A stretch of DNA of 49,717 nucleotides from Candidatus Rifleibacteriota bacterium (GCA_900772775.1 CAAGRW010000151.1:1-49717); one strand, 5' to 3'; numbered from the stretch's first letter, positions 1-26,129 are shown. Numbers and translations are program-made. The notes: generated by a model not told the origin, from the sequence alone.

Positions 1-289
1 AATAACTTTGCCATCAATCATAAATTCACCCCCTTAAAATACCTACCATACTTTTGTATCATCTCACTAGTAATAGGAATAGCATCAGAACGATTTCCAT
101 CTCCTTCTTTAGTCATAGTAAAGCTCTTGTCATGCAAGGCGTATTATTTTTGTAATAAAGCGATAAATAAATGGCAAAGTTATTGCCGAGAAATTTGTAA
201 TAATAGTCCGATACACTGCAAGCATAGAAAAGGCCGAAATTGATAAAAAAAATCCGGCCACAACAAAAAGTAAAGCGGGGGACACAAAT

Positions 290-565
290 ATGGATATAGC
301 AAGTTTAGGCACTAACCTCTTCGGAATGTTTTGTGGGCAAAGCCAGAAAGCTCACAATATGCAAATGATGGCTGCTGACTATCAGAATGCCCAGACGATC
401 TACGCTTCTATCGATGCTCAAGCACAAAAAAGTGCTATGGAGCGTTGGAAAATTGCCAGTGATACTCAGACCAAAATTTTTGAAATTCAACAAGAAGTGA
501 CTGTCAATCGTGCCAAAACTCAAGACAAAATGTTTAATAAATGGTGCGATTATATAAAATCTTAA
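290..565 (+). CDS. Small hypothetical protein, member 1 of a local three-gene paralog family defined by a shared C-terminal module
   Basis: ATG start with a GGGGGA SD 7 nt upstream; 91 aa. The C-terminal ~35 aa (WKIASDTQTKIFEIQQEVTVNRAKTQDKMFNKW) align without gaps to the C-termini of the 678..1694 and 2003..2743 products. No signal peptide or TM segment. Confidence 0.7.
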   Translation: MDIASLGTNLFGMFCGQSQKAHNMQMMAADYQNAQTIYASIDAQAQKSAMERWKIASDTQTKIFEIQQEVTVNRAKTQDKMFNKWCDYIKS

Positions 566-677
566 GGTTATCGCATTTTACTCGACCGATAGTTGTTGAT
601 TACTCTACTTTTAATTTTAAGCATATACAGCAAATAGTAAATCAAGCTACTTTATGAAACCAAGGGGGGATATATAA

Positions 678-1694
678 ATGCTTATTTCTAACCGTCCTTT
701 AGATAGCCTTTCAGTTAGTTTATCGGCACTGCCGCCGCAACATCAAAATTTAGCTCCTCCGCCCTTGGAGGCGGCAAACGACAAAGACTCTGTGCTCTTA
801 TCTAGAGATACACAAAGTGAGTCACAGCAACTTGATACTTCAGCAACGCTATCTGCAGCAACTGCTCTGTCTACCAATTTACTAAACCAAGAGAATCAAA
901 CTGTAGACAACACCTCAAGCCAAGCTCAAAATCGGACACAAGGCAAATCTCAAGATCAAACTCAAATTCATGCTGAGCTAGAGCCTCTACCTGCAGAAGA
1001 ACGCGAGCCCAAATGCCGCAGTCGTCCCAATAGCTATTCAGCCGCAACTTCAACAAATTGCGCCTTTAGTTCGGAAGCAGCTCCAGCCTTGCTCTTTCAA
1101 GAAGATTTCTATACCGCCTGGCCACTTGGGACAGCTCTTGGATCAGCGTCATCTATTGCCACACAAATGGGTGGTTCGCCAAATAATACATCGCAAACCG
1201 AAATATCCCAAACTGACAGCTCACAAGTTGGTAATCCACAGACTGGGATATTACAAACAGAACAAACCGAACAGAGCGAGCCAGTAGCGGAGCCATTGGG
1301 GACAGCTTATTACCAGCCAGAAGCAATCCACAATACGACAGAATCAACAAATATAGATAATACAAAAAACACTGTCAGTTCTATTACTGTTGAAAGCTCC
1401 TCTTCTACTCGTTCAAAAGCAGAAGCTAAAAAGGCACCTGCTGATGAACCGCCCACCCAAGCCGAAGAGCAAGCGCTCAGAGAAGAAAAAGAGCAACAAG
1501 AAAAGCAACGCTTAGAAGTAATTTACGACCGTATTAAAGCAGAGAAGTTGTTGCATGAAGCTAAAAGGCAAGCTATTTGGGCCGACTTGCAAACGGAGTT
1601 GCGACGCATTTGGCGAGAAGTTATGCTCAGGCGCAAAAAATCGGAAGACGATTACCAAAAGAGTTGGCAAAAGATCTTCCTTAATGCAGGATAG
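678..1694 (+). CDS. Hypothetical low-complexity (Q/S/T/E-rich) protein, paralog family member 2
   Basis: ATG start with an AAGGGGGGA SD and the same ATATAAATG start context as the gene at 2003; 338 aa. The N-terminal ~270 aa are low complexity. A charged coiled-coil-like stretch (EEQALREEKEQQEKQRLE) follows, then the conserved C-terminal module (WADLQTELRRIWREVMLRRKKSEDDYQKSW). Confidence 0.7.
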   Translation: MLISNRPLDSLSVSLSALPPQHQNLAPPPLEAANDKDSVLLSRDTQSESQQLDTSATLSAATALSTNLLNQENQTVDNTSSQAQNRTQGKSQDQTQIHAELEPLPAEEREPKCRSRPNSYSAATSTNCAFSSEAAPALLFQEDFYTAWPLGTALGSASSIATQMGGSPNNTSQTEISQTDSSQVGNPQTGILQTEQTEQSEPVAEPLGTAYYQPEAIHNTTESTNIDNTKNTVSSITVESSSSTRSKAEAKKAPADEPPTQAEEQALREEKEQQEKQRLEVIYDRIKAEKLLHEAKRQAIWADLQTELRRIWREVMLRRKKSEDDYQKSWQKIFLNAG

Positions 1695-1715
1695 AAAATA
1701 CTTACAATCGGCAAC

Positions 1716-1772
1716 GGCAGCCTAACCTAGACAATTTAGCCAAATTAAATAAATTTACTCTACTAGGCTGCC
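1716..1772 (+). terminator. Long-range stem-loop downstream of the 678..1694 gene; possible terminator or processing structure
   Basis: The arm GGCAGCCTA (1716-1724) is perfectly complementary to TAGGCTGCC (1764-1772). The stem is 9 bp and the loop ~39 nt. No U-tract follows, so terminator function is uncertain. Confidence 0.3.
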
Positions 1773-1958
1773 CGTCCCGATTATAGCTAGACTACCAAGA
1801 AAACTATTTGCCTAGCTCTAGACAAATTATCTGGAACAAAAATTCTCAGAAAAAATTATGTTAATTTTCCTGAACTAAATTTCACAAATAAGCAACAAGA
1901 CAGCCTTTTTTTAAAGGGGCTAACCATTTATAATACTAGGGAAAATAATTGCATTTTA

Positions 1959-1974
1959 GCCAGAACGTTCTGGC
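1959..1974. promoter_or_regulatory. Perfect 16-bp palindrome (GCCAGAACGTTCTGGC) between a TATAAT box and the SD of the 2003..2743 gene; candidate operator or 5-prime-UTR hairpin
   Basis: GCCAGAAC is the exact reverse complement of GTTCTGGC. A TATAAT hexamer lies at 1929-1934, and the SD AAGGAGG lies at about 1987-1993. Confidence 0.45.
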
Positions 1975-2002
1975 CTTTAGCCTTGTAAGGAGGCCTATAT
2001 AA

Positions 2003-2743
2003 ATGGTTGCCCCTATCGGAATCAATACCAATACATATTCGCAAGCCAACGCTACTCGCAATATGCAGCAAGTTGGCGGCCAAAGCCAAGTAACCCGTAA
2101 AAACGACGTTGCTCCTCAGAGCGAAGCTCACAACACTGCTGCAGCCGACAACGTTCAGCTCTCCGAAGGCGTTTCTTTTGCTCAGAATGCTGAAGAGAAC
2201 GCTACTCATATAGGTGCTGCCCAAAATCAGTTTGAAGAAGAGATCGGCGATACTTTTGAAAGCGCCGAAGAGCCCGAAGTTGGCGCTGCTCAGGCCGGTA
2301 CTGCTGGCACAACCGAAGAAGCTGCCGCCCCCAAAGAGCCGCAAACTGACGAATACGGTTTCATTTTGATGGATGACCAAGGCAATACCATTGGCGGAAG
2401 CGTTCCTACCGATGATGGCGGCGCTGGTACTCCTCCTCCCGTAGACGGTGGCAATGGCGGTGCTGCTGGTGAAGTTCCCCCCGAAGATGGCGGAGCCGGT
2501 GAAACAGAAAGTGCTGCAGCTCGCGCTGAGCGTCTCCAGAAGATGGAACAAGATCGCGAAGCCGCTCTCTCTATCCTCACCCAAATGCAAGCCGACCGTC
2601 AGAAATGGCTGGCCGAGTTGATGAAGATCCTTTCCGATACTCAGGCTTCCATTTTCGATATTATTCAGCAAGCTGCCAACAACCGCGCTATGGCTTTCGA
2701 CAGAGCTATGATGGGTTGGTCCAGAGTATTTAACGGTCACTAA
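2003..2743 (+). CDS. Hypothetical acidic G/A/E/P-rich protein, paralog family member 3
   Basis: ATG start with an AAGGAGG SD; 246 aa. The central region is disordered and acidic. A charged helix (AAARAERLQKMEQDREAAL) follows, then the conserved module MKILSDTQASIFDIIQQAANNRAMAFDRAMMGW. The nearly co-extensive antisense ORF 1928..2740 has no SD or homology support. Confidence 0.75.
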   Translation: MVAPIGINTNTYSQANATRNMQQVGGQSQVTRKNDVAPQSEAHNTAAADNVQLSEGVSFAQNAEENATHIGAAQNQFEEEIGDTFESAEEPEVGAAQAGTAGTTEEAAAPKEPQTDEYGFILMDDQGNTIGGSVPTDDGGAGTPPPVDGGNGGAAGEVPPEDGGAGETESAAARAERLQKMEQDREAALSILTQMQADRQKWLAELMKILSDTQASIFDIIQQAANNRAMAFDRAMMGWSRVFNGH

Positions 2744-2771
2744 TTTAGTAAAATTAGCTATATAGTATAAA

Positions 2772-2828
2772 GAGCGGCGTGTTTACCACATACATTGCAA
2801 TTGTGGTAAGTACGCAGCTCTTTTTTTT
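2772..2828 (+). terminator. Rho-independent terminator of the 2003..2743 gene
   Basis: Imperfect long hairpin GAGCGGCGTGTTTACCACA...TGTGGTAAGTACGCAGCTC, followed by T8 at 2821-2828. Confidence 0.75.
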
Positions 2829-2957
2829 GTATAAAATACCATCAAGTCCATGTCTTTATGGCGCGGTAATGTCCACTCAATTTGTACAAACAATTGAAGA
2901 TATGCAATTATCATGCATTTTTCCGCAATACTACTATATAATCGAGAGAAAAGAACA

Positions 2958-3114: not shown

Positions 3115-4032
3115 CTAAATGTTTTGCCAATTGGCCGTAATATCGTTGCGAGCTCCAGCTTTAGCTTTTTCGATAAGCAAATCGGCCATTTTATTGACAG
3201 CCCAAGGGAAGTGAGCGTCTCTTAAAGAGCGATAATCGAAGTCACAAACATAATTGGTAATATCTATAGCGTAGAGCACGTGATCTTTAACAGCGAACTC
3301 CAAGGCATTCATATCATAACCTATGGCACTGTTAAACTTAATAGTATACTCTTCAGCTTTAGCTAAATCGGCAGGATCAAGCACTCCCTGATCTTGGACA
3401 TATTCGCCCTGGCCCATAGGACGAGGGATATAACGAATAGCTCTAGCGTTGGTACGACCGATGCTTAAACAACGAATATAATCTTCCCAAGCAATGAACT
3501 CCTGCAAAGTCATAGTCAGGCTACCAGATTCGTTGTAAGCTTTGATAGCGTCTTCTTTGCTATAAATTTTATAAACGCTCTTCCAGCCGCCACCAAAAGC
3601 CGGCTTCATAATGCAAGGTAAACCAACTTCCGCTAAACGAGCGTCCCAATCGATAGGCCACATGTTGCGCAAAGAACCAGCCGTAATGTCGGCAGTATAA
3701 GCTAAGTTGGGCAGTACAACAGTTTTGGGTACGGGGATCCCCAAACGCTTGGCTAAAGAGTAGCCAAAGAATTTATCATCAACATTCATCCAGAAAGGAT
3801 TATTGACAACGTAGGTGCCTTGCAAAGAGGCTTGCTTCAAATAAACTTGATAGTAAGGTACTTCGTGGGAAATACGATCCAAAATAGCGCCGTAAGGGCA
3901 CTTTTCACCACAGCTGGTACCACCTAAGTGAATATATTCAGCCTGTACACCACAGTTGCGGCGATTTATTTCTGCCAATACGCCATCAGGAAAACTATCC
4001 TCACGACCGCGCAAAATACCGACTTTCAACAT
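3115..4032 (-). CDS. ATP-grasp fold protein (RimK / glutathione-synthetase-like ligase superfamily); substrate unknown
   Basis: ATP-grasp-like motifs are present: KPAFGGGWKSVYKIYSKEDAIKAY, LQEFIAWEDYIRC, and ALEFAVKDHVLYAIDITN. The preferred start is the ATG at 4032 (MLKVGIL), which has a GAGGAGGG SD. The TTG start of the ORF track at 4053 lies inside that SD. Confidence 0.6.
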   Translation of the reverse strand: MLKVGILRGREDSFPDGVLAEINRRNCGVQAEYIHLGGTSCGEKCPYGAILDRISHEVPYYQVYLKQASLQGTYVVNNPFWMNVDDKFFGYSLAKRLGIPVPKTVVLPNLAYTADITAGSLRNMWPIDWDARLAEVGLPCIMKPAFGGGWKSVYKIYSKEDAIKAYNESGSLTMTLQEFIAWEDYIRCLSIGRTNARAIRYIPRPMGQGEYVQDQGVLDPADLAKAEEYTIKFNSAIGYDMNALEFAVKDHVLYAIDITNYVCDFDYRSLRDAHFPWAVNKMADLLIEKAKAGARNDITANWQNI

Positions 4033-4116
4033 GTTGTAAACAACCCTCCTCAAAGGAATAGGCGGCCCCGGGCCGCTGCTTAAAAATGTTTGCGAGTTCG
4101 GGAAAACCCACTATGG

Positions 4117-5136
4117 TCAGCGTCTTTTGTTAAAATAAGCCAAAGCCCAATTGCGCACACCTAAATCGTCATCATGCAAAGCACTGCGCAAGAATTCATC
4201 ACTCTCTGTTTCGGCAGCCAAAGCATAAGCGCGACGGCGTACACTAGCGTCACCATAATTACGGCAAAGATCGTAAAGCGCCGTACATTGTACTTTAAAC
4301 TTTTGATTTTGCAAATCGATACGTTCTTCAGGATCCATAAGAGACATTAAATCCAGAACGCCATGCAAAAGAGGCATTATATCGTCGCTCCAGTAGGAGA
4401 TATTCTCTACGATGTGACGGAGAACCTTAGGAGCATTTTCTGTGGCCTTAGCTAAGCACGTAACAGCTTTTCTAGCTAAGAAGTTGGGAGCATAGACCGG
4501 CTGCTTCAAGAAACCGCTGGAAACGCTTTTTTCGACATCAAGCCCCAAAGCCCATTGGCAAATAGTAAGTTTGTTATCGGCAGTAAAACCACGTATTCCT
4601 AAAGACTGCTCTATCAGGGCCAAACGTCCCTCTTTGGAAAGATAGTCACTGACCAAGAGACAAATGAATAAACAAACTCTGTCGTTGTTACTCAATTCCG
4701 GCTTGCTTACCAGGGCTTTACCACAATACAAGCTTTCCTCTTTTTTCAAAGGCTCAAGCGAAGCTTCTCTGGCAAAGTTTACTTCTGTCTCGGGATTGAT
4801 AAGTTCACAGGCAAAACTGATAATCTTATCGACCATGATAGTTTCCCCGGCATTTTCACAAAGCCAAGCCATAGCTAAAATTCCGCCGGGAGAAACTTGA
4901 ATCAATTGGCTGAGAGCCTTCTGGCGTGTACTATCATTTAACTTCTTAGTTTTAAATATCTCACGAGCTAAAGCATCAATCCAATCTTGCTCTGTTACAG
5001 AAGCCTGTTCACCGGCCACATCGCGTTTCATACAACGCTGCAAACGCCTGCGAGCCGCCCCCTTAACTTGCTGTAAGGCTGCGCTACTGAAAACCTCGTC
5101 CAAAAGAAAATCCTCCCAACGAGAGCTTGGGAGCAT
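4117..5136 (-). CDS. Hypothetical alpha-helical protein with C-terminal HEAT/PBS-lyase-like repeats
   Basis: 339 aa; ATG start with a GGGAGA SD. The C-terminus carries repeat-like segments (GDASVRRRAYALAA, DDDLGVRNWALAYF) typical of HEAT repeats. No other motif was recognised. Confidence 0.55.
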   Translation of the reverse strand: MLPSSRWEDFLLDEVFSSAALQQVKGAARRRLQRCMKRDVAGEQASVTEQDWIDALAREIFKTKKLNDSTRQKALSQLIQVSPGGILAMAWLCENAGETIMVDKIISFACELINPETEVNFAREASLEPLKKEESLYCGKALVSKPELSNNDRVCLFICLLVSDYLSKEGRLALIEQSLGIRGFTADNKLTICQWALGLDVEKSVSSGFLKQPVYAPNFLARKAVTCLAKATENAPKVLRHIVENISYWSDDIMPLLHGVLDLMSLMDPEERIDLQNQKFKVQCTALYDLCRNYGDASVRRRAYALAAETESDEFLRSALHDDDLGVRNWALAYFNKRR

Positions 5137-17885: not shown

Positions 17886-18359
17886 ATGGCAAATTATCCT
17901 TGTGCAGAATGCGGCAATATGGTGGAGACAAAAGGCATAGGCACCTGTCCGAAATGCGGTTGTAAAAAGCCATTTAAATGCAGTAAGTGTGGCAAACAAA
18001 TCGGTCTGGATTTCGTTTACAAGCCAGAAAAGCTCACTTTTAGCGGCAAGCCGCTTTACTGTTTGGACTGTGGATCCGATGTGGAACAAGTCCCCTGTGC
18101 TCGCTGTGGCAAAACTTTAATTCGTTCTACCGGAGTAGAGCGACCGATAGATGGAGTGATCAAAGTTTATCACAAAGAATGTCTCGAACAGCAGAGCAAA
18201 ATTTATACTTTTGTAATGCCTATTATTGTAATTGTAGGTGCTATCACTTTTGGCTACGCTTCTTGGATGCTTGTACACGCCTGGTACGGCTTATTAGTAG
18301 GTATCATACTCGGAGCAGGTATAGGCAAAGCTGCAGCCGACAAGTTCTTACCCAACTAA
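17886..18359 (+). CDS. Multi-zinc-ribbon protein with a C-terminal membrane anchor
   Basis: Three CxxC...CxxC pairs are present (CAECG..CPKCG, CSKCG..CLDCG, CARCG). Two hydrophobic helices lie at the C-terminus (FVMPIIVIVGAITFGYASWMLV, LLVGIILGAGIG). 157 aa. Confidence 0.6.
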   Translation: MANYPCAECGNMVETKGIGTCPKCGCKKPFKCSKCGKQIGLDFVYKPEKLTFSGKPLYCLDCGSDVEQVPCARCGKTLIRSTGVERPIDGVIKVYHKECLEQQSKIYTFVMPIIVIVGAITFGYASWMLVHAWYGLLVGIILGAGIGKAAADKFLPN

Positions 18360-22036: not shown

Positions 22037-25000
22037 CTAATAGCAGCAACCTTCACCTAAAAGTCTACTGAGTTCAAAACGCAACTCGCTGCTATCATCT
22101 ACGCAGTAATCTCGGTGCAAACGTATCACAGTAGTATCTTCGGGACCGCGTACGTGTACAAATACAGGACGATCGCCTTTATGGCGCAGCAAAATTTCTT
22201 TAAAATCGGCTACCAAACGACGAGCGGAACCGGGCAAAGCCACATTAAGACCTTTTAAGCTTTTTACTACAGAATCATCGAAGTCGTTTTGTACTTTATT
22301 GCCAGAAGCCATAATAAAATTGACATCACTTACTTCTATGGCATTAATGCGATATTTTTCTTCCTCTGGCTCTGCCTCTTCGACAGCTAAAGTTTCACCT
22401 TCGTCATCATCTTTTTCGTCATCGTCCGTTTCGTCAAAAACGACCGGAGGAGCAGGATTAAAGCCGTGATCCACTTCTACAGTACCGCGTACAATAATAA
22501 CTTGACCCTCGCCACACTTTTCGATATTGGCTTCAAAATCACGCGGCTTAAGAGAAAATTCTACTGTGCCTGTAAAATCTTGCATAGTAATAAAAGCCAT
22601 TTTATCTTTGCGCTTGGTAATAACTATGCGACAAGCAGTCACTAACCCGCCCACTTTTACATTGCGACCGACCATAGAGCCAAGCTGATCGATTGTGCAA
22701 GTAGTATTTTCTTTCAGTACTTCTACATAATCTTCTAAAGGAGATCCGGAAAGATAAACACCCAACATATCTTTCTCAAAATCTAGCAATTCACGGCGAG
22801 CAAATTCGTCCTCGTTAGTATGAATTATGCAACGGATATCGTCTTGGCCGCCTCCTCCAGGTTCATCGCCGAAAAGGCCCACTTGAGCATTGGCCGCTTC
22901 GCGTTGGCACATTTTCATATATTCAGAGATATGCTCTAAATTGCTGAGCAAAGTGGCTCGATTGACTCCAAAAAGATCGAAGGCACCAGACTTGATAAGC
23001 CCTTCCCACACTTTTTTATTGATATAGCGGGGATCGAGACGAGAGCAAAAATCGATTAAGCTTTTGTAAGGGCCATGCTCTTCTCTTTCTTTAACGATTA
23101 AATTTACAGCATTGAGACCTACACCACGCAAAGCGGCCATCCCCCAGCGCACAGCTCCTTTGGAAACAGAGAAACCAGCCAATGATTCATTGACGTCCGG
23201 CCCCAATACTTCCAAACCAGAATCACGACACTCATGAATGAAAAAAGACACTTTCTTAATATCATTCATGACGCTGGTCATTAAGGCAGCCATATACTCG
23301 GGGCGATAGTAAGTTTTAAGCCAAGCTGTTTGGAAAGTGACCATAGCGTAAGCGGCTGAGTGCGACTTGTTAAAGCCATATTCAGCGAATTTGGCCATGG
23401 TATCGAAAATATTTTCGGCACATTGTTCGTCTACGCCACGCTCCTTGGCTCCTTCCACAAAGTAGATGTGGTGCTCGGCCATAACATCTTTTTTCTTCTT
23501 ACCCATAGCTTTACGCAACTTGTCAGCTTTAGCCATGGTATATCCGGCCAAAGTTGTCGCTGTAAGCATCACTTGCTCTTGATATAAGAAGAAGCCGTAA
23601 GTGTCAGCCAAAATAGGTTCGAGCTTGGGGTGGGGATAAACGACTCCGCCACCGCGTCCGTGACGTCTGGCAATAAAATCATCGACCACACCACCTTTAA
23701 TGGGGCCGGGACGATAAAGAGCCAAGAAAGCTACAATATCAGTAAAGCGATCTGGTTTTAATTGCTTTAAGTAGCGTTTCATGCCATCAGATTCAAGCTG
23801 AAAAACACCATTAGTATCAGCAGCCGAAAGCAAAGCGTATACTTTTTGGTCTTCATAGTCTACATCGTGGTTGATGTCTACTTTTATACCGCGAGAGTAT
23901 TCGATAATTTTTAAACAATTGTTGATAACAGTAAGGTTGCGCAATCCCAAGAAGTCCATTTTTACCATGCCGACTTCTGCAGAGTCGTTCATATCATATT
24001 GCACAACAACATCATCGCCGTTTTTTTGCAAAGGCACCAATTGGCCCAGAGGACGGCTAGAAATAATAACGCCGGCCGCATGCATACCGGTATTGCGAGC
24101 CATACCTTCGCAACGTATGGCATCATCGACAAGGCGTCGGTTAACTTCACTGCTCTCATAAAGTTTTTCAAAATCGGGATTTTTGAAAGCATCTTTAATA
24201 GTTATCTTCATTTCGTCAGGCACAGCTTTGCAAAGCTTGCCCACATCGGCCAAAGGTACATCCATAACGCGTCCCACGTCGCGAATGGCATTTTTGGCTT
24301 TCATACGTCCGTAAGTAGCAATTTGAGAGACGCGATCTTCGCCGTAGCGTTCGCGACAATATTGGATTACTTCACCACGCCGATCTACACAAAAGTCGGT
24401 GTCAATATCGGGAAGTTCGGTTCGTTCAGGATTTAAGAAACGCTCGAAAAGTAAGTCATATTTAAGAGGATCTAATTGAGTAATGCCTATTAAATAAGCC
24501 ACCAAAGAACCAGCAGCCGAGCCGCGTCCAGGGCCTACAGGAATGCCATGTTCGCGTGACCAGTTAATAAAGTCCCACACCAACAAGAAATAGTCGGGGA
24601 AGCCCTTGCCTATAATAACGTCCAATTCAGTCTTCAAACGATCTAAATATTTTTGTTCAGGAGTAAGCGTACCAAAACGCTCTAACAATCCCTTACGGCA
24701 GAGTTCTTTAAGATAATCGGTACTGTTGGTACCTTCAGGCACAGGGAATTTAGGTAAATAGGTAGTGCTGAAGTCCATCTCAAAATTGCAACGCTCGGCC
24801 ACCAATAGAGTATTGTCGACAGCCTCAGGACAAAAAGAGAAAGCTTCCAACATCTCTTCACGCGTTTTTAAATAGCACTCAGGGCAAGAATGGAGGCGCC
24901 TAGCATCATCCAACAATTTTCCCGAGCCAACGCAAATTAAAATATCTTGTACATCGGTATCTTCTTTATTCAAAAAGTGAGCGTCGTTAGTAGCTACTAC

Positions 25001-25597
25001 TTTTAAGCCATGTTCTTTGGCCAGCTTAATAAGTAAAGGATTGGTCTTTTGTTGCTCTTCTATGCCATGGTTCATAAGCTCCACAAAAAGATCATCCGGG
25101 CCGAAACACTTTTTCAAAAAAGCCAAACGTTGGCTGGCCAATTCATAATCATCATTTAAAAGTGCATCATTTACTTCGCCGCGCAAACAACCAGTTAGAG
25201 CAACTAATCCTTTGGAGTGTTTTTCCAAAAGCTCATGATCGGCCCTAGGCTTATAATAAAAACCATGCAAATAAGCTTCGGAAACGATCTGGCATAAATT
25301 GGAATAACCTTCACGATCTTTAGCAATAAGAGTTAAGTGGAAATAATGTTTGTCCAAATCGCCTTCACGATCGAAGCGAGTGCGCGGCGCCACATAAATT
25401 TCACAACCAATTAAGGGCTTAATACCGGCATCTTTGCAAGCATGATAAAATTTTACGCAACCGCCCATTACACCATGATCGGTAATAGCCAAAGCCGGCA
25501 TGCCACAATCTTTGGCTTTTTTCACAATATCTTTAATACGATTGGCACCGTCAAGCAAACTGTACTCTGTATGGACGTGCAAATGGACAAAAGACAT
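22037..25597 (-). CDS. dnaE: DNA polymerase III subunit alpha
   Basis: The PHP N-terminus MSFVHLHVHTEYSLLDG, the motif GPGRGSAAGSLVAYLIGIT, PDIDTDF, and YRPGP are present. 1186 aa with an AAGGAG SD. Confidence 0.96.
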   Translation of the reverse strand: MSFVHLHVHTEYSLLDGANRIKDIVKKAKDCGMPALAITDHGVMGGCVKFYHACKDAGIKPLIGCEIYVAPRTRFDREGDLDKHYFHLTLIAKDREGYSNLCQIVSEAYLHGFYYKPRADHELLEKHSKGLVALTGCLRGEVNDALLNDDYELASQRLAFLKKCFGPDDLFVELMNHGIEEQQKTNPLLIKLAKEHGLKVVATNDAHFLNKEDTDVQDILICVGSGKLLDDARRLHSCPECYLKTREEMLEAFSFCPEAVDNTLLVAERCNFEMDFSTTYLPKFPVPEGTNSTDYLKELCRKGLLERFGTLTPEQKYLDRLKTELDVIIGKGFPDYFLLVWDFINWSREHGIPVGPGRGSAAGSLVAYLIGITQLDPLKYDLLFERFLNPERTELPDIDTDFCVDRRGEVIQYCRERYGEDRVSQIATYGRMKAKNAIRDVGRVMDVPLADVGKLCKAVPDEMKITIKDAFKNPDFEKLYESSEVNRRLVDDAIRCEGMARNTGMHAAGVIISSRPLGQLVPLQKNGDDVVVQYDMNDSAEVGMVKMDFLGLRNLTVINNCLKIIEYSRGIKVDINHDVDYEDQKVYALLSAADTNGVFQLESDGMKRYLKQLKPDRFTDIVAFLALYRPGPIKGGVVDDFIARRHGRGGGVVYPHPKLEPILADTYGFFLYQEQVMLTATTLAGYTMAKADKLRKAMGKKKKDVMAEHHIYFVEGAKERGVDEQCAENIFDTMAKFAEYGFNKSHSAAYAMVTFQTAWLKTYYRPEYMAALMTSVMNDIKKVSFFIHECRDSGLEVLGPDVNESLAGFSVSKGAVRWGMAALRGVGLNAVNLIVKEREEHGPYKSLIDFCSRLDPRYINKKVWEGLIKSGAFDLFGVNRATLLSNLEHISEYMKMCQREAANAQVGLFGDEPGGGGQDDIRCIIHTNEDEFARRELLDFEKDMLGVYLSGSPLEDYVEVLKENTTCTIDQLGSMVGRNVKVGGLVTACRIVITKRKDKMAFITMQDFTGTVEFSLKPRDFEANIEKCGEGQVIIVRGTVEVDHGFNPAPPVVFDETDDDEKDDDEGETLAVEEAEPEEEKYRINAIEVSDVNFIMASGNKVQNDFDDSVVKSLKGLNVALPGSARRLVADFKEILLRHKGDRPVFVHVRGPEDTTVIRLHRDYCVDDSSELRFELSRLLGEGCCY

Positions 25598-25634: not shown

Positions 25635-26129
25635 TTAAGAATCGGAATGTGGAACGCCGACTTTTATAAGTGGACGTAAAGCAACTGCATAGCGATTATT
25701 TATATATGTTTGTAAAGAGTTAAGTTCAAGCACAGAGGGCACGATTATTGTAACGAGCGAAATTTGCTCAGCTGCAGCTTCATCAAATTCCAATTTGCCA
25801 ATCAGGGGATCGACTTGAGTTATTTCCAATAAATAAGCCGTAAAAATGCTATCTAAAGCGCTATGTATGGCAGTAATTTTTATATGCTGACCTCGCGCCC
25901 AGTAGAAGCAATCCCAAACTACAAGCAATCGATTGAGCGCCTCTTCATGAGAAGCCCAAAATTGCATTTCTTGAGCTAGTCTAGTTGCATATTCTTTATC
26001 TAATTTAGCTTTGGTAAAGCGCTCAATAATACCGCCACGACAAAGTTTATCTAAAAATTTTAAGTTGGACTTGCCATCCGGAGCTTCAAATTTTTCGCCT
26101 ATAGGCCTCGATTGGCTTTGCTCTGCCAC
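25635..26129 (-). CDS. DnaE-fragment-like protein: a degenerate paralog of DnaE residues ~294-386
   Basis: GTG start at 26129 with a GGGAGGA SD 10 nt upstream; 164 aa. The segment FLDKLCRGGIIERF...LLVVWDCFYWARGQHIKITAIHSALDSIFTAYLLEITQVDPL aligns with DnaE YLKELCRKGLLERF...FLLVWDFINWSREHGIPVGPGRGSAAGSLVAYLIGITQLDPL. The GPGRGS motif is lost. Confidence 0.7.
   Translation of the reverse strand: MAEQSQSRPIGEKFEAPDGKSNLKFLDKLCRGGIIERFTKAKLDKEYATRLAQEMQFWASHEEALNRLLVVWDCFYWARGQHIKITAIHSALDSIFTAYLLEITQVDPLIGKLEFDEAAAEQISLVTIIVPSVLELNSLQTYINNRYAVALRPLIKVGVPHSDS

What the first reader, a model, noticed from the sequence alone, without database searches (positions are those of the whole stretch)
290..2743. 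Tandem trio of paralogous genes with a shared short C-terminal module and unrelated, disordered N-termini
Three consecutive same-strand genes (91, 338 and 246 aa) each have their own SD and long AT-rich upstream spacers. All three end in the same ungapped module:
- P1: WKIASDTQTKIFEIQQEVTVNRAKTQDKMFNKW
- P3: MKILSDTQASIFDIIQQAANNRAMAFDRAMMGW
- P2: IWADLQTELRRIWREVMLRRKKSEDDYQKSW
D, Q, I, R, D and the terminal W are invariant, and N-R-A is shared by P1 and P3. Upstream of the module each protein has a charged helical stretch. The remaining sequence is unrelated between the three, lacks signal peptides and TM segments, and is strongly low-complexity in the two long members (Q/S/T/E-rich versus G/A/E/P/D-rich). 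P2 and P3 also share a D-x-V-x-LS motif 40-55 residues from the N-terminus (KDSVLLS, ADNVQLS), reminiscent of FlgM-type anti-sigma factors. P1 begins MDIASL, like YjfB-type small motility-associated proteins. Both resemblances are too short to count as evidence. I cannot place the C-terminal module in any family I know. A variable disordered head on a conserved small helical tail, repeated in tandem, would fit non-classically exported substrates, a self-assembling module, or a common partner-docking module. This is my best candidate for something uncharacterised in the window.
Basis: partly seen in the sequence, partly recalled or inferred. Interest (0 to 1): 0.7.

Follow-up and report, generated by a model that had tools for sequence, protein, structure and literature searches.

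The report
Uncharacterised helical-tail family beside flagellar genes
Three neighbouring genes in a gut bacterium of the little-known Xenobia lineage share a highly conserved, single-helix tail that matches no known protein family; the trio sits at the end of the flagellar export-gate operon, so it is a good candidate for a new self-assembling or docking module, perhaps exported by the flagellar machinery.

Summary
P1 (290-565), P2 (678-1694) and P3 (2003-2743) share a module of about 70 aa, not 33 (BLASTP E = 3e-9, 7e-6, 4e-4; shuffle z = 6-17).

It matches nothing in Pfam, NCBIfam or the PDB. AF2 models it as one continuous Pro/Gly-free helix.

The module defines a family of at least 498 clusters at 50% identity, centred on class Xenobia (Eremiobacterota). 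The canonical member is a stand-alone ~78-aa protein, present in several copies per genome, usually with a strong sigma-70-type promoter. Tandem copies encode identical proteins despite 12-22 synonymous differences. Other members carry the module at the C-terminus of variable heads, mostly low-complexity, sometimes TIR, CHAT, trypsin, VgrG or RHS.

The window begins 326 nt after a missing partner gene, u105. Across the class the conserved order is fliPQR-flhB-flhA-(aminotransferase)-u105-short x1-4-P2-like-P3-like.

Best reading (confidence about 0.4): a self-associating or docking helix, with short proteins as bulk subunit, P2 and P3 as head-bearing accessory subunits, and u105 as dedicated partner; export through the flagellar type III gate is possible but unproven.

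The FlgM, YjfB, needle/pilin and flagellin resemblances all failed profile tests. Function is inferred, not shown.

The parts
290..565 (+). P1: a stand-alone member (91 aa) of the helical-module family, the flhA/u105-linked copy. The module is aa 15-91 (nt 332-562). The N-terminal ~20 residues are almost uncharged.
   Evidence: ORF. 60-99% identical to ~78-aa proteins of Xenobia MAGs. AF2 gives a single helix over residues 3-90, pLDDT 77 overall and about 90 over the conserved C-terminal part. Family HMM score 131 bits.
678..1694 (+). P2: a head-plus-tail member (338 aa). It has a fast-evolving S/T/A/Q/P-rich acidic head, a charged helical stretch, and then the module (aa 261-335, nt 1458-1682).
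   Evidence: ORF. Module E = 7e-6 to P1. Orthologs lie in the same position in L007-L013 at 42-88% identity, and P2-like genes of 126-383 aa occupy that slot in distant genomes. Composition and pI 4.85.
2003..2743 (+). P3: a head-plus-tail member (246 aa). It has a conserved N-terminal region (aa 1-75, nt 2003-2227), an acidic Gly/Ala/Pro linker, and the module (aa 170-245, nt 2510-2737).
   Evidence: ORF. Module E = 3e-9 to P1. Full-length orthologs are 80-99% identical within the genus and 29-48% in distant Xenobia. Conserved N-terminal motifs. No Pfam or PDB hit for the N-terminal region.
1872..2002 (+). P3 control region: a ~130-nt block nearly invariant in six orthologs. It contains a perfect TATAAT (1929-1934), a palindrome GCCAGAACGTTCTGGC (1959-1974), and GGA motifs including the SD.
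   Evidence: Alignment A3: the block is invariant while sequence further upstream cannot be aligned. The fold shows a small hairpin plus a hairpin involving the SD, but the z-score is not significant. No Rfam family.
2759..2833 (+). Intrinsic terminator of P3: a long G+C-rich hairpin followed by U8.
   Evidence: RNA fold -33.3 kcal/mol, z = -5.7, 0 of 200 shuffles as stable.
1706..1782 (+). Stable stem-loop in the P2-P3 spacer with no U-run. It may end or stabilise the P1-P2 transcript.
   Evidence: RNA fold -27.3 kcal/mol, z = -5.9. The arms are partly conserved in L008 and L009 and absent in L011-L013.
123..180 (+). Region upstream of P1: a weak terminator-like hairpin plus T-run, followed by a conserved block TTTTTGTAATAAAGCGATAAATAAA. 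In orthologs this is a clear hairpin (ACGCCTTAcc...ggTAAGGCGT plus T8) that ends the flhA-u105 transcript.
   Evidence: Alignment A8, with compensatory changes in the stem among orthologs. The window's own version folds weakly.
566..677 (+). P1-P2 spacer: AT-rich (32% GC), not conserved except for the SD, with no terminator. P2 is probably co-transcribed with P1.
   Evidence: Alignment A9. The fold has no stable structure, z = +2.2.

Best explanation
**What it is (shown).** P1, P2 and P3 are three members of an undescribed protein family defined by a ~70-residue, Pro/Gly-free, single alpha-helical module.
- The family is centred on class Xenobia of the Eremiobacterota/Vulcanimicrobiota. The window comes from a gut Candidatus Bruticola-like genome.
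- The canonical member is the module alone (~78 aa). It occurs in several copies per genome, usually behind a strong housekeeping-type promoter, and its protein sequence is frozen by purifying selection.
- P2 and P3 are head-plus-tail versions.
- The trio is the conserved 3' end of the flagellar export-gate block: fliPQR-flhB-flhA-(class-III aminotransferase)-u105-short x1-4-P2-like-P3-like. The first short gene is always directly preceded by u105, a 105-aa acidic helical-hairpin protein. The u105 gene lies just outside the window.

**How it most likely works (inferred).**
- The module is a helix that assembles with copies of itself or with one common partner.
- The abundant short proteins would be the bulk subunit.
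- Head-bearing paralogs would join or dock through the same helix and contribute their heads. These include P2, P3 and, in other genomes, TIR, CHAT, trypsin, VgrG and RHS proteins.
- u105 would be the dedicated partner that binds the helix before assembly, by analogy with CesA-EspA, YscE/G-YscF and FliS-flagellin.

**Least certain step (weaker inference).** P1-P3 have uncharged or disordered N-termini and no Sec signal, and they sit immediately downstream of flhA. They may therefore be handed to the flagellar type III export gate.
For: **Module reality and novelty.**

**Single long helix.** AF2 pLDDT is about 90 over the conserved part, and there is no Pro in the module.

**Constraint typical of an assembly subunit.**
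- The C-terminal 45 residues are about 90% invariant in a 57-sequence alignment.
- Across the 150 listed cluster representatives, 26 of 45 positions are at least 60% conserved and are spread over all helix faces.
- Tandem copies encode identical proteins despite 12-22 synonymous codon differences.

**Abundance proxies.**
- Several dispersed and tandem copies per genome.
- A sharply defined promoter CCTTTACT-N17-GATAATA, with the 17-nt spacer in 27 of 32 motif occurrences upstream of short genes.

**Head-plus-tail generality.** 498 clusters carry the module; among the 150 listed it is C-terminal in 99; heads include TIR in 9, plus CHAT, trypsin, VgrG and RHS.

**Flagellar linkage.**
- Pfam identifies FliP, FliQ, FliR, FlhB and FlhA upstream. 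FlhA, FlhB and FliR pass the flagellar equivalog cut-offs and not the injectisome ones.
- The block is conserved in 20 of 24 informative genomes, with gaps of 25-81 nt in L016.

**Dedicated partner u105.**
- u105 precedes a short gene in 30 of 30 u105 loci.
- Its 148-member family carries mostly Eremiobacterota/Xenobia names where hits are named, and in three named hits its locus tags are consecutive with short genes.
- The AF2 model is confident (pLDDT 87, pTM 0.71): a helical hairpin with an acidic tail; pI 4.4.

**N-termini.** The first charged residue of the short proteins is at median position 17, and none of the window's three proteins has a hydrophobic segment.
Against: - No experiment or multimer model shows self-association. 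AF2 was monomer only.
- Foldseek finds nothing chaperone-like for u105 (best E about 1), so that role rests on analogy.
- The flagellar linkage is not universal. L085 (7.6-Mb contig), L038, L041 and L065 carry u105 plus short arrays with no flhA nearby.
- Short genes use sigma-70-type promoters, not sigma-28 boxes: CCGATA occurs in 7 of 96 upstream regions against a 6.4% background.
- Fusion to large folded proteins (VgrG, RHS, TIR) is incompatible with type III export of those particular members. In RHS the module occupies the toxin slot.
- I could not determine whether these genomes also encode a canonical flagellin, FliS, FliD or FlgM. None was found in 938 kb of held sequence, but that is a small fraction of the genomes.
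Confidence: 0.4

Rival explanations
1. The module is a toxin or effector domain. It would be delivered by several routes (RHS cage, T6SS VgrG spike, possibly the flagellar type III gate for the short forms) or coupled to TIR, CHAT or trypsin suicide effectors. u105 would be its immunity or antidote protein.
For: - In P0191 the module starts about 25 residues after the RHS terminal motif (...NNPANQRDPTGRL), which is the cleaved-cargo slot.
- In VgrG P0271 it follows a Pro-rich linker at the C-terminus, like evolved-VgrG effector domains.
- TIR is the only recurrent folded head (9 of 149). One TIR member lies in an island with integrases and an AAA_15/21 ATPase.
- A small acidic partner gene always adjoins the short genes.
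Against: - The sequence is almost frozen across a class and between tandem copies, whereas polymorphic toxin domains diversify.
- The short genes are multi-copy with strong constitutive-type promoters.
- No same-strand gene follows the RHS gene, so there is no adjacent immunity gene.
- The VgrG is followed by its own DUF4123 adaptor and a 486-aa putative effector, so its tail may be a docking site rather than a toxin.
- The module is a polar, charge-balanced helix with no catalytic-looking motif and no membrane-like hydrophobicity.
- Dispersed short copies have no u105 beside them.
Confidence: 0.17
2. P2 and P3 (and perhaps P1) are lineage-specific flagellar regulators or assembly factors. They would be FlgM-like secreted anti-sigma factors or FliK-like rulers, with the shared helix binding a flagellar component such as sigma-28, FlhB or FlhA.
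For: - They sit directly after flhB-flhA in 20 of 24 informative genomes.
- They have disordered acidic heads, and a D-x-V-x-L-S motif lies 40-55 residues from the N-terminus in P2 and P3 orthologs.
- P3 has an invariant leader with GGA motifs, which suggests translational control as seen for late flagellar genes.
Against: - There is no FlgM, FliK or any flagellar family hit for the full proteins or for the P3 N-terminal profile, even at E <= 10.
- There is no sigma-28 promoter signal.
- The same module occurs in up to 4 or more strongly promoted stand-alone copies per locus, on TIR, RHS and VgrG proteins, and in loci without flagellar genes. A one-to-one regulator does not fit that.
- P2-like lengths range from 126 to 383 aa, which is not ruler-like.
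Confidence: 0.12
3. The short proteins form an abundant cytoplasmic coiled-coil scaffold (ZapB-like or cytoskeletal/adaptor) unrelated to flagella. The adjacency to flhA would be inherited synteny without functional meaning.
For: - There is no signal peptide or TM segment.
- The protein is a single long amphipathic helix.
- The promoter is housekeeping-type.
- u105 plus short arrays exist away from flagellar genes.
- Many fused heads (TIR, CHAT, trypsin) are cytoplasmic.
Against: - flhA-(aminotransferase)-u105-short packing is tight and on one strand (25-81 nt gaps), and it is retained across genomes whose short proteins are only 55-60% identical to P1, while the downstream flanks differ.
- Some members carry signal peptides or TM segments ahead of the module (by reading the sequences), which places the module outside the cytoplasm in at least those proteins.
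Confidence: 0.2
4. The similarity is a compositional artefact of low-complexity coiled-coil sequence, or the ORFs are not real genes.
For: The sequences are Q/K/T/E-rich helices, and such sequences can give spurious matches. The weak HrpA_pilin and myosin hits are of that kind.
Against: - Composition-adjusted BLASTP E-values and shuffle z-scores of 6-17.
- Position-specific invariant residues.
- Hundreds of homologs under strong purifying selection.
- Conserved synteny.
Confidence: 0.01

Closest known systems
Type III-secreted filament or needle subunits with their small helical chaperones (EspA-CesA, YscF-YscE/YscG, flagellin-FliS)
   Same: - A small (~80 aa), all-helical, strongly conserved subunit without a Sec signal and with an uncharged, flexible N-terminus.
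- Longer paralogs share the same terminal helix, as SctF and SctI, or flagellin and the hook-associated proteins, share terminal helices.
- It is encoded next to type III export-gate genes.
- It is immediately preceded by a ~100-aa acidic helical-hairpin protein.
   Different: - No sequence or profile similarity to SctF/PrgI, HrpA, EspA or flagellin families.
- Predicted as one continuous helix with no P-x-x-P turn or hairpin.
- The adjacent gate genes are flagellar, not injectisome.
- u105 has no Foldseek similarity to FliS, CesA or YscG.
- The module is also fused to cytoplasmic effectors and to RHS and VgrG.
FlgM anti-sigma-28 factor (PF04316)
   Same: - A disordered acidic protein encoded with flagellar genes.
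- A D-x-V-x-L-S-like motif about 40-55 residues from the N-terminus.
- Probable regulation at the leader (P3).
   Different: - No HMM hit at E <= 10 for the full proteins or for the P3 N-terminal profile.
- The C-terminal part is a different, family-specific helix.
- Sizes are 246-338 aa against about 90-100 aa.
- No sigma-28 promoter signal nearby.
C-terminal cargo or toxin domains of RHS and evolved VgrG proteins (polymorphic toxin systems)
   Same: In P0191 and P0271 the module occupies exactly the C-terminal slot that holds the delivered domain.
   Different: - This applies to only 2 of the 150 listed representatives.
- The sequence is extremely conserved rather than diversified.
- There is no adjacent immunity gene after the RHS gene.
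- Most family members are stand-alone or carry disordered heads.
Small abundant coiled-coil proteins (ZapB, Braun's lipoprotein Lpp) and homotypic adaptor domains of conflict systems (effector-associated or Death-like domains)
   Same: - About 60-80 residues of uninterrupted helix.
- High inferred abundance.
- The same small helical domain is attached to TIR, caspase-like (CHAT) or trypsin effectors.
   Different: - No sequence relationship.
- No lipobox or signal peptide, unlike Lpp.
- No STAND NTPase partner carrying the module was found among 149 scanned representatives.
- Conservation covers all helix faces, which is unusual for a simple coiled coil.

Membership tests
FlgM (anti-sigma-28 factor, PF04316) | Significant match to the FlgM profile | tested here: not met
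   No FlgM hit for P1-P3 at E <= 10, for nine P3-like N-terminal regions scanned singly, or for their profile against the PDB.
FlgM (anti-sigma-28 factor, PF04316) | C-terminal helices bind sigma-28, and the gene lies in a sigma-28 regulon | tested here: inconclusive
   Binding cannot be tested here. The sigma-28 -10 box CCGATA is not enriched upstream of family genes (7 of 96 against a 6.4% background). No conserved sigma-28-like box was seen upstream of P1 or P3.
YjfB-type putative motility protein (PF14070) | Profile match and a conserved MDIAxLS N-terminus | tested here: not met
   No Pfam hit. The N-terminus varies among close orthologs (MDIASL, MDILGG, MSIFNN, MSILSS).
Type III needle or pilus subunits (SctF/PrgI/MxiH; HrpA_pilin PF09589; EspA) | Profile match over the conserved C-terminal helix | tested here: not met
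   The only hit is a weak HrpA_pilin match (best E = 4e-4, 13 of 57 members). In the one matching member examined (P0014) it aligns to the variable N-terminal residues 2-48, not the module.
Type III needle or pilus subunits (SctF/PrgI/MxiH; HrpA_pilin PF09589; EspA) | Helix-turn-helix hairpin fold | tested here: not met
   AF2 monomer gives one helix over residues 3-90, and there is no Pro/Gly turn. A monomer model cannot exclude a different conformation in an assembly.
Type III needle or pilus subunits (SctF/PrgI/MxiH; HrpA_pilin PF09589; EspA) | Encoded with type III export apparatus genes and a small dedicated chaperone | tested here: inconclusive
   Adjacent to fliPQR-flhB-flhA of the flagellar type. 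u105 is a small acidic helical hairpin but has no structural match to known chaperones.
Flagellin and flagellar axial proteins (Flagellin_N/C, Flg_bb_rod) | Conserved N- and C-terminal D0/D1 helices detectable by profile or BLAST | tested here: not met
   No Pfam or NCBIfam hit.
Polymorphic-toxin C-terminal domain (RHS/VgrG cargo) | Occupies the C-terminal slot after the RHS DPxGL-type motif or after the VgrG spike | tested here: met
   P0191 and P0271/P0154. This applies to only 2 of the 150 listed representatives.
Polymorphic-toxin C-terminal domain (RHS/VgrG cargo) | Cognate immunity gene immediately downstream, and sequence diversification among alleles | tested here: not met
   No same-strand downstream gene after the RHS gene. 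The module is nearly invariant.
WXG100/ESAT-6-like | About 100-aa helical hairpin with a central W-x-G motif | tested here: not met
   No W-x-G in the consensus (read directly), no hairpin in the AF2 model and no Pfam hit.
Flagellar or type III export chaperones (FliS, FlgN, FliT, CesA, YscE/G), considered for u105 | Sequence or fold similarity to a known chaperone family | tested here: not met
   No Pfam, NCBIfam or PDB sequence hit. Foldseek best E is about 1. Substrate binding cannot be tested here.
Effector-associated or Death-like homotypic adaptor domains of conflict systems | The same domain is found on effectors and on a paired STAND NTPase or sensor | tested here: inconclusive
   The module is found on TIR, CHAT and trypsin effectors. 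No NTPase-bearing member occurs among 149 scanned representatives, and the neighbours of the TIR member lack the module.

The most novel reading that the evidence does not exclude
The ~78-aa proteins are the building block of a previously unknown helical polymer. A dedicated partner (u105) would chaperone it, and the flagellar type III gate would export it. Head-bearing paralogs would dock onto it through the same helix: P2 and P3 here, and TIR, CHAT, trypsin, RHS and VgrG proteins elsewhere. That would make it a new class of type III-dependent filament or display system in an uncultivated phylum. In the extreme case it would replace or decorate the flagellar filament. The TIR fusions might then use the module as an integrated decoy or sensor of that polymer.
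Probability: 0.15. Interest if true: 0.9.

Novelty: new variant of a known kind. Interest (0 to 1): 0.66.

Why it matters
- **A large gap in annotation.** The family has at least 498 clusters at 50% identity and matches nothing in Pfam, NCBIfam or the PDB. It includes what is probably one of the most strongly expressed and most conserved small proteins of the Xenobia lineage, which has no cultured member I know of and includes human and animal gut members.
- **A testable hypothesis.** Its conserved position at the tail of the flagellar export-gate operon, together with an equally unknown partner gene, suggests a new substrate-chaperone pair of the flagellar type III pathway, or a new self-assembling scaffold.
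- **Possible wider use.** The same helix is reused as a tail on TIR, CHAT, trypsin, VgrG and RHS proteins. It may therefore be a general docking or oligomerisation tag, relevant to secretion, bacterial immunity and protein engineering.
- **Practical consequence.** Even if the mechanism proves mundane, defining the domain would annotate hundreds of currently hypothetical proteins.

Tried and rejected
1. **FlgM and YjfB resemblances.** No profile hit at E <= 10, and the motifs are not conserved.
2. **HrpA_pilin lead.** It recurs but is compositional; in the matching member examined it aligns to the variable N-terminus only.
3. **Sigma-28 (class III) promoters.** CCGATA is not enriched. A sigma-70-type promoter was found instead.
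4. **Canonical flagellin near family genes.** None in 938 kb of held loci. This is not conclusive for whole genomes.
5. **Trimerisation domain of collagen-like proteins.** Gly-X-Y tracts occur in only 3 of 117 long representatives.
6. **Phage origin.** No relative in IMG/VR.
7. **Rfam families in the spacers.** None.
8. **Foldseek.** 0 hits for the P1 helix and best E about 1 for u105. PDB profile searches for the module, u105 and the P3 head gave nothing.
9. **Conserved partner operon around dispersed copies.** None; the neighbourhoods differ (BamA/OmpH, glycosyltransferases).
10. **Downstream neighbours.** They are uninformative: LolA/RseB-like, LysM-NlpC/P60, and an ATP-grasp-like gene (by eye from the sequence) with no Pfam hit.
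12. **Literature.** Nothing on these sequences or on Xenobia flagella.

Full report
**1. The observation**

- The three same-strand ORFs are present as described: P1 290-565 (91 aa), P2 678-1694 (338 aa) and P3 2003-2743 (246 aa).
- Each has a strong SD, and the spacers are AT-rich at 32-35% GC.
- The shared C-terminal similarity is statistically solid.
  - BLASTP gives P1-P3 E = 3e-9 over 67 aa, P1-P2 E = 7e-6 and P2-P3 E = 4e-4.
  - In an explicit control on the last 75 residues, the ungapped BLOSUM62 scores lie 17.2, 9.7 and 6.1 standard deviations above shuffles, and 0 of 500 shuffles reach them.
- The module is about 70-75 aa rather than 33. It contains no proline in any of the three proteins.
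- None of the proteins has a TM- or signal-like hydrophobic segment.
- The family HMM finds only these three members in the 49.7-kb window.

**2. No known family**

- Pfam and NCBIfam give nothing near threshold for any of the three proteins.
- PDB sequence searches with 3- and 57-sequence profiles give nothing.
- AF2, run with a 57-sequence alignment, models P1 as one uninterrupted helix over residues 3-90. pLDDT is about 90 over the conserved part.
- Foldseek returns no match for that model.
- A recurrent weak Pfam hit to HrpA_pilin looked interesting. In the matching member I examined it aligns only to the variable N-terminal third, so it is compositional.

**3. The family**

- A word-indexed search found 138 relatives. 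Nearly all of the 120 listed are 75-101 aa (one 69, one 127), with 57-99% identity to P1. Where the hits are named, they come mostly from Eremiobacterota/Xenobia MAGs such as Ca. Bruticola and Ca. Xenobium.
- The C-terminal 45 residues (consensus ERWKILQDTQTKIFEIQQDVTVNKAKTQDKMFNKWDEYIRS) are about 90% invariant.
- An exhaustive HMM search of 1.84 billion cluster representatives found 498 clusters at E <= 1e-3.
  - Among the best 150, the module is the whole protein in 33, C-terminal in 99, internal in 14 and N-terminal in 10.
  - Most heads have no Pfam domain.
  - The only recurrent folded head is TIR (9 of 149). There are single cases of CHAT, trypsin-TIR-TPR, a VgrG/gp5 spike, Ig-like domains and a 1,938-aa SLH-RHS protein.
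- Across these diverse representatives, 26 of the last 45 positions are still at least 60% conserved, and they are spread over all faces of the helix.
- Tandem copies within a genome encode identical proteins yet differ at 12-22 synonymous codons of about 80 (L035, L040). The identity therefore reflects purifying selection, not recent duplication.
- In 72 unique short proteins, the first charged residue is at median position 17.

**4. Genomic context, the main new finding**

- The window is 99.1% identical to a Hadza gut contig (L078). It begins 326 nt downstream of a gene that it therefore misses.
- In that contig and its relatives the gene order is: hook/rod-type gene, fliM, fliN, fliN, fliO, fliP, fliQ, fliR, flhB, flhA, a 105-aa unknown gene (u105), P1, P2, P3.
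- FlhA, FlhB and FliR exceed NCBIfam's flagellar equivalog cut-offs and fall below the injectisome ones.
- I clustered all ORFs from 77 related loci and mapped gene order. This shows a block conserved across the class: fliPQR-flhB-flhA-(class-III aminotransferase in non-Bruticola genomes)-u105-short x1-4-P2-like (126-383 aa)-P3-like (~245 aa).
  - The downstream flank differs between lineages.
  - In L016 the gaps between flhA, the aminotransferase, u105 and the first short gene are 53, 25 and 81 nt.
- By genome, 20 u105 loci are flhA-linked, 4 are not (L038, L041, L065, L085) and 3 are truncated.
- L085, on a 7.6-Mb contig, has u105 followed by four tandem short genes and no flagellar gene within 10 kb. 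The invariant unit is therefore u105 followed by short genes. The flagellar linkage is frequent but not obligatory.
- Additional short copies are dispersed in unrelated neighbourhoods.
- The rest of the window is housekeeping: rpoB/C, dnaE, proB, PPDK, ABC-F and others.

**5. The partner gene u105**

- u105 forms a family of 148 proteins. Where hits carry a source name, most are Eremiobacterota/Xenobia MAGs. In three named hits the locus tags are consecutive with short-family genes.
- It has no Pfam, NCBIfam or PDB match.
- AF2 gives a confident model (pLDDT 87, pTM 0.71): a helical hairpin (H11-32, H35-39, H45-81) with a disordered acidic tail; pI 4.4.
- Foldseek finds no significant neighbour. 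A chaperone or antidote role is therefore an analogy from size, charge, fold class and position. It is not a demonstrated relationship.

**6. Regulation**

- Upstream of 96 non-redundant short genes, the sigma-28 box CCGATA is not enriched (7 of 96; background 6.4%).
- A sharply defined sigma-70-type promoter is enriched instead: CCTTTACT-N17-GATAATA. The spacer is exactly 17 nt in 27 of 32 motif occurrences upstream of short genes. The -35 element sits about 70 nt before the ATG and is followed by a conserved CAAGAAA.
- In the window, P1 is preceded by the remnant of a terminator that closes the flhA-u105 transcript. In orthologs this is a clear hairpin with compensatory changes.
- The P1-P2 spacer has no conserved block and no terminator, so P1 and P2 are probably co-transcribed.
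- P3 has a ~130-nt control region that is nearly invariant across the genus. It contains a perfect TATAAT, a palindrome and GGA motifs including the SD. P3 also has a strong intrinsic terminator (-33 kcal/mol, z = -5.7).
- No Rfam family matches the spacers.

**7. P2 and P3**

- P3 is conserved over its full length, at 80-99% within the genus and 29-48% in distant genomes.
- Its N-terminal ~75 residues carry conserved motifs (N-x-QQVGGQxQ; D-x-V-x-L-S...VS[LF]AQxAxENAxHxG). An acidic Gly/Ala/Pro linker and the module follow.
- This N-terminal region matches no Pfam family, specifically not FlgM, and nothing in the PDB.
- P2 has a rapidly evolving S/T/Q/P-rich head. Its DSVLLS motif is conserved only among the closest species and degrades to a loose D-x-hydrophobic-x-(L/P) elsewhere.

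**8. Interpretation**

*Shown:*
- a new, strongly constrained single-helix module;
- a stand-alone multicopy form;
- head-plus-tail paralogs;
- an obligatory neighbour gene;
- a conserved position at the end of the flagellar export-gate operon.

*Inferred:*
- All-face conservation, multicopy strong promoters and reuse of the helix as a tail on many unrelated heads fit best with a helix that assembles with itself or docks to one common partner.
- The short proteins would be the bulk subunit, and P2 and P3 would be accessory subunits.
- u105 would bind the helix before assembly.
- The flhA adjacency, the lack of Sec signals and the uncharged or disordered N-termini make export through the flagellar type III gate plausible for P1-P3. 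This is the weakest step.
  - The short-gene promoters are not sigma-28 type.
  - Four genomes uncouple the cassette from flhA.
  - VgrG, RHS and TIR fusions cannot be type III substrates.

*Rivals:*
- **Toxin or effector.** The RHS cargo slot and the VgrG C-terminus support it. The extreme conservation, the lack of an immunity gene after the RHS gene, and the VgrG having its own DUF4123 adaptor and effector weaken it.
- **FlgM- or FliK-like regulator.** It fails the profile tests and cannot explain the copy number or the fusions.
- **Purely cytoplasmic scaffold with coincidental synteny.** This remains possible.

**9. Limits**

- I could not obtain whole genomes, so I do not know whether Xenobia also encode canonical flagellin, FliS, FliD, FlgM or sigma-28. 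None occurs in the 938 kb of loci held.
- I could not run multimer predictions, profile-profile searches against full databases, or any expression analysis.
- The literature held here says nothing about these proteins or about flagella in Xenobia.

**10. Verdict**

It is one locus of a class-wide cassette attached to the flagellar export gate.
- Function remains inferred.
- I rate it as a new variant of a known kind: a helical assembly or docking tail with a dedicated partner, analogous to type III filament-subunit and chaperone pairs.
- There is a modest chance (about 0.15) that it is something categorically new.

Noticed in passing
window 1872-2002: The ~130 nt before the P3 start codon are almost invariant in six Bruticola-type genomes, while everything further upstream cannot be aligned. 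The block holds a perfect TATAAT (1929-1934), a perfect 16-nt palindrome GCCAGAACGTTCTGGC (1959-1974) and two GGA motifs, one in the SD. This looks like a protein-binding operator and/or a CsrA-type translational control site.
   Followed up: partly
loci L001-L062, upstream of short-family genes (e.g. L016, about 67 nt before the ATG): A very sharp promoter consensus CCTTTACT-N17-(G)TGATAATA, followed about 6 nt later by CAAGAAA. It may serve as a working model of a strong housekeeping promoter in Xenobia, which as far as I know has no cultured member.
   Followed up: partly
window 3115-4053 (-) and L064 2388-3317: A 312-aa protein that looks ATP-grasp-like by eye (MRRVVYNMLKVGILRGREDSFP...) has no Pfam hit at E <= 1e-3. 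It is the conserved downstream neighbour of P3 in Bruticola, and a homolog also lies 2.7 kb from a short-family gene in a distant Vulcanimicrobiota genome. A different ATP-grasp (ATP-grasp_IQCH/PGM1_C) lies two genes from the short gene in L005 and L006. This could be a modifying enzyme or a coincidence.
   Followed up: no
window 4117-5136 (-): A 339-aa protein with no Pfam hit, conserved next to the ATP-grasp-like gene in all Bruticola-type loci (cluster c33). Function unknown.
   Followed up: no
L016 3751-5091; L086 7755-9098 (and 9 other loci): In non-Bruticola Xenobia, a class-III aminotransferase (PF00202) is inserted between flhA and u105, tightly packed and on the same strand in most of these loci. 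That is an unusual member of a flagellar export-gate operon.
   Followed up: partly
window 25635-26129 (-) and 22037-25597 (-): A 164-aa ORF directly upstream of dnaE has its own partial match to the DNA_pol3_alpha NTPase domain (profile positions 2-91 of 260). The downstream 1,186-aa DnaE is already complete. This may be a fragmentary duplicate or a pseudogene remnant.
   Followed up: no
L082 and L083 (GC 43-44%), 6410-8885 of L082: The TIR-plus-module protein P0233 sits beside a second TIR gene (which lacks the module), an 8xMP gene, two phage-type integrases and an AAA_15/AAA_21 ATPase. This is a mobile defence-island-like context.
   Followed up: partly
L080 1-1191 (-) and 8001-13817 (+): Two ~1,930-aa SLH-RHS genes lie 7 kb apart on one contig. 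The one carrying the module as its C-terminal cargo has no same-strand gene downstream, so no obvious immunity gene. I did not check whether the second RHS gene carries the module, because it runs off the locus.
   Followed up: no
L033 8748-9257 (-); L086 11832-12338 (-); window 17886-18359 (+): A small zinc-ribbon protein is encoded convergently just after the P3-like gene in non-Bruticola loci. The window has a double-zinc-ribbon protein 15 kb away. I did not test whether these are orthologs.
   Followed up: no
L069, L073, L074, L077: Weaker module-bearing proteins (164-365 aa as listed) occur in MAGs labelled Acidobacteriota, with no flagellar genes seen by eye among their neighbours (not Pfam-scanned). 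This is either real spread beyond Xenobia or mis-binned contigs.
   Followed up: partly
window 1706-1782: A very stable stem-loop (-27 kcal/mol, z = -5.9) with no U-tract lies in the P2-P3 spacer. Its arms are conserved in the two closest orthologs only.
   Followed up: partly
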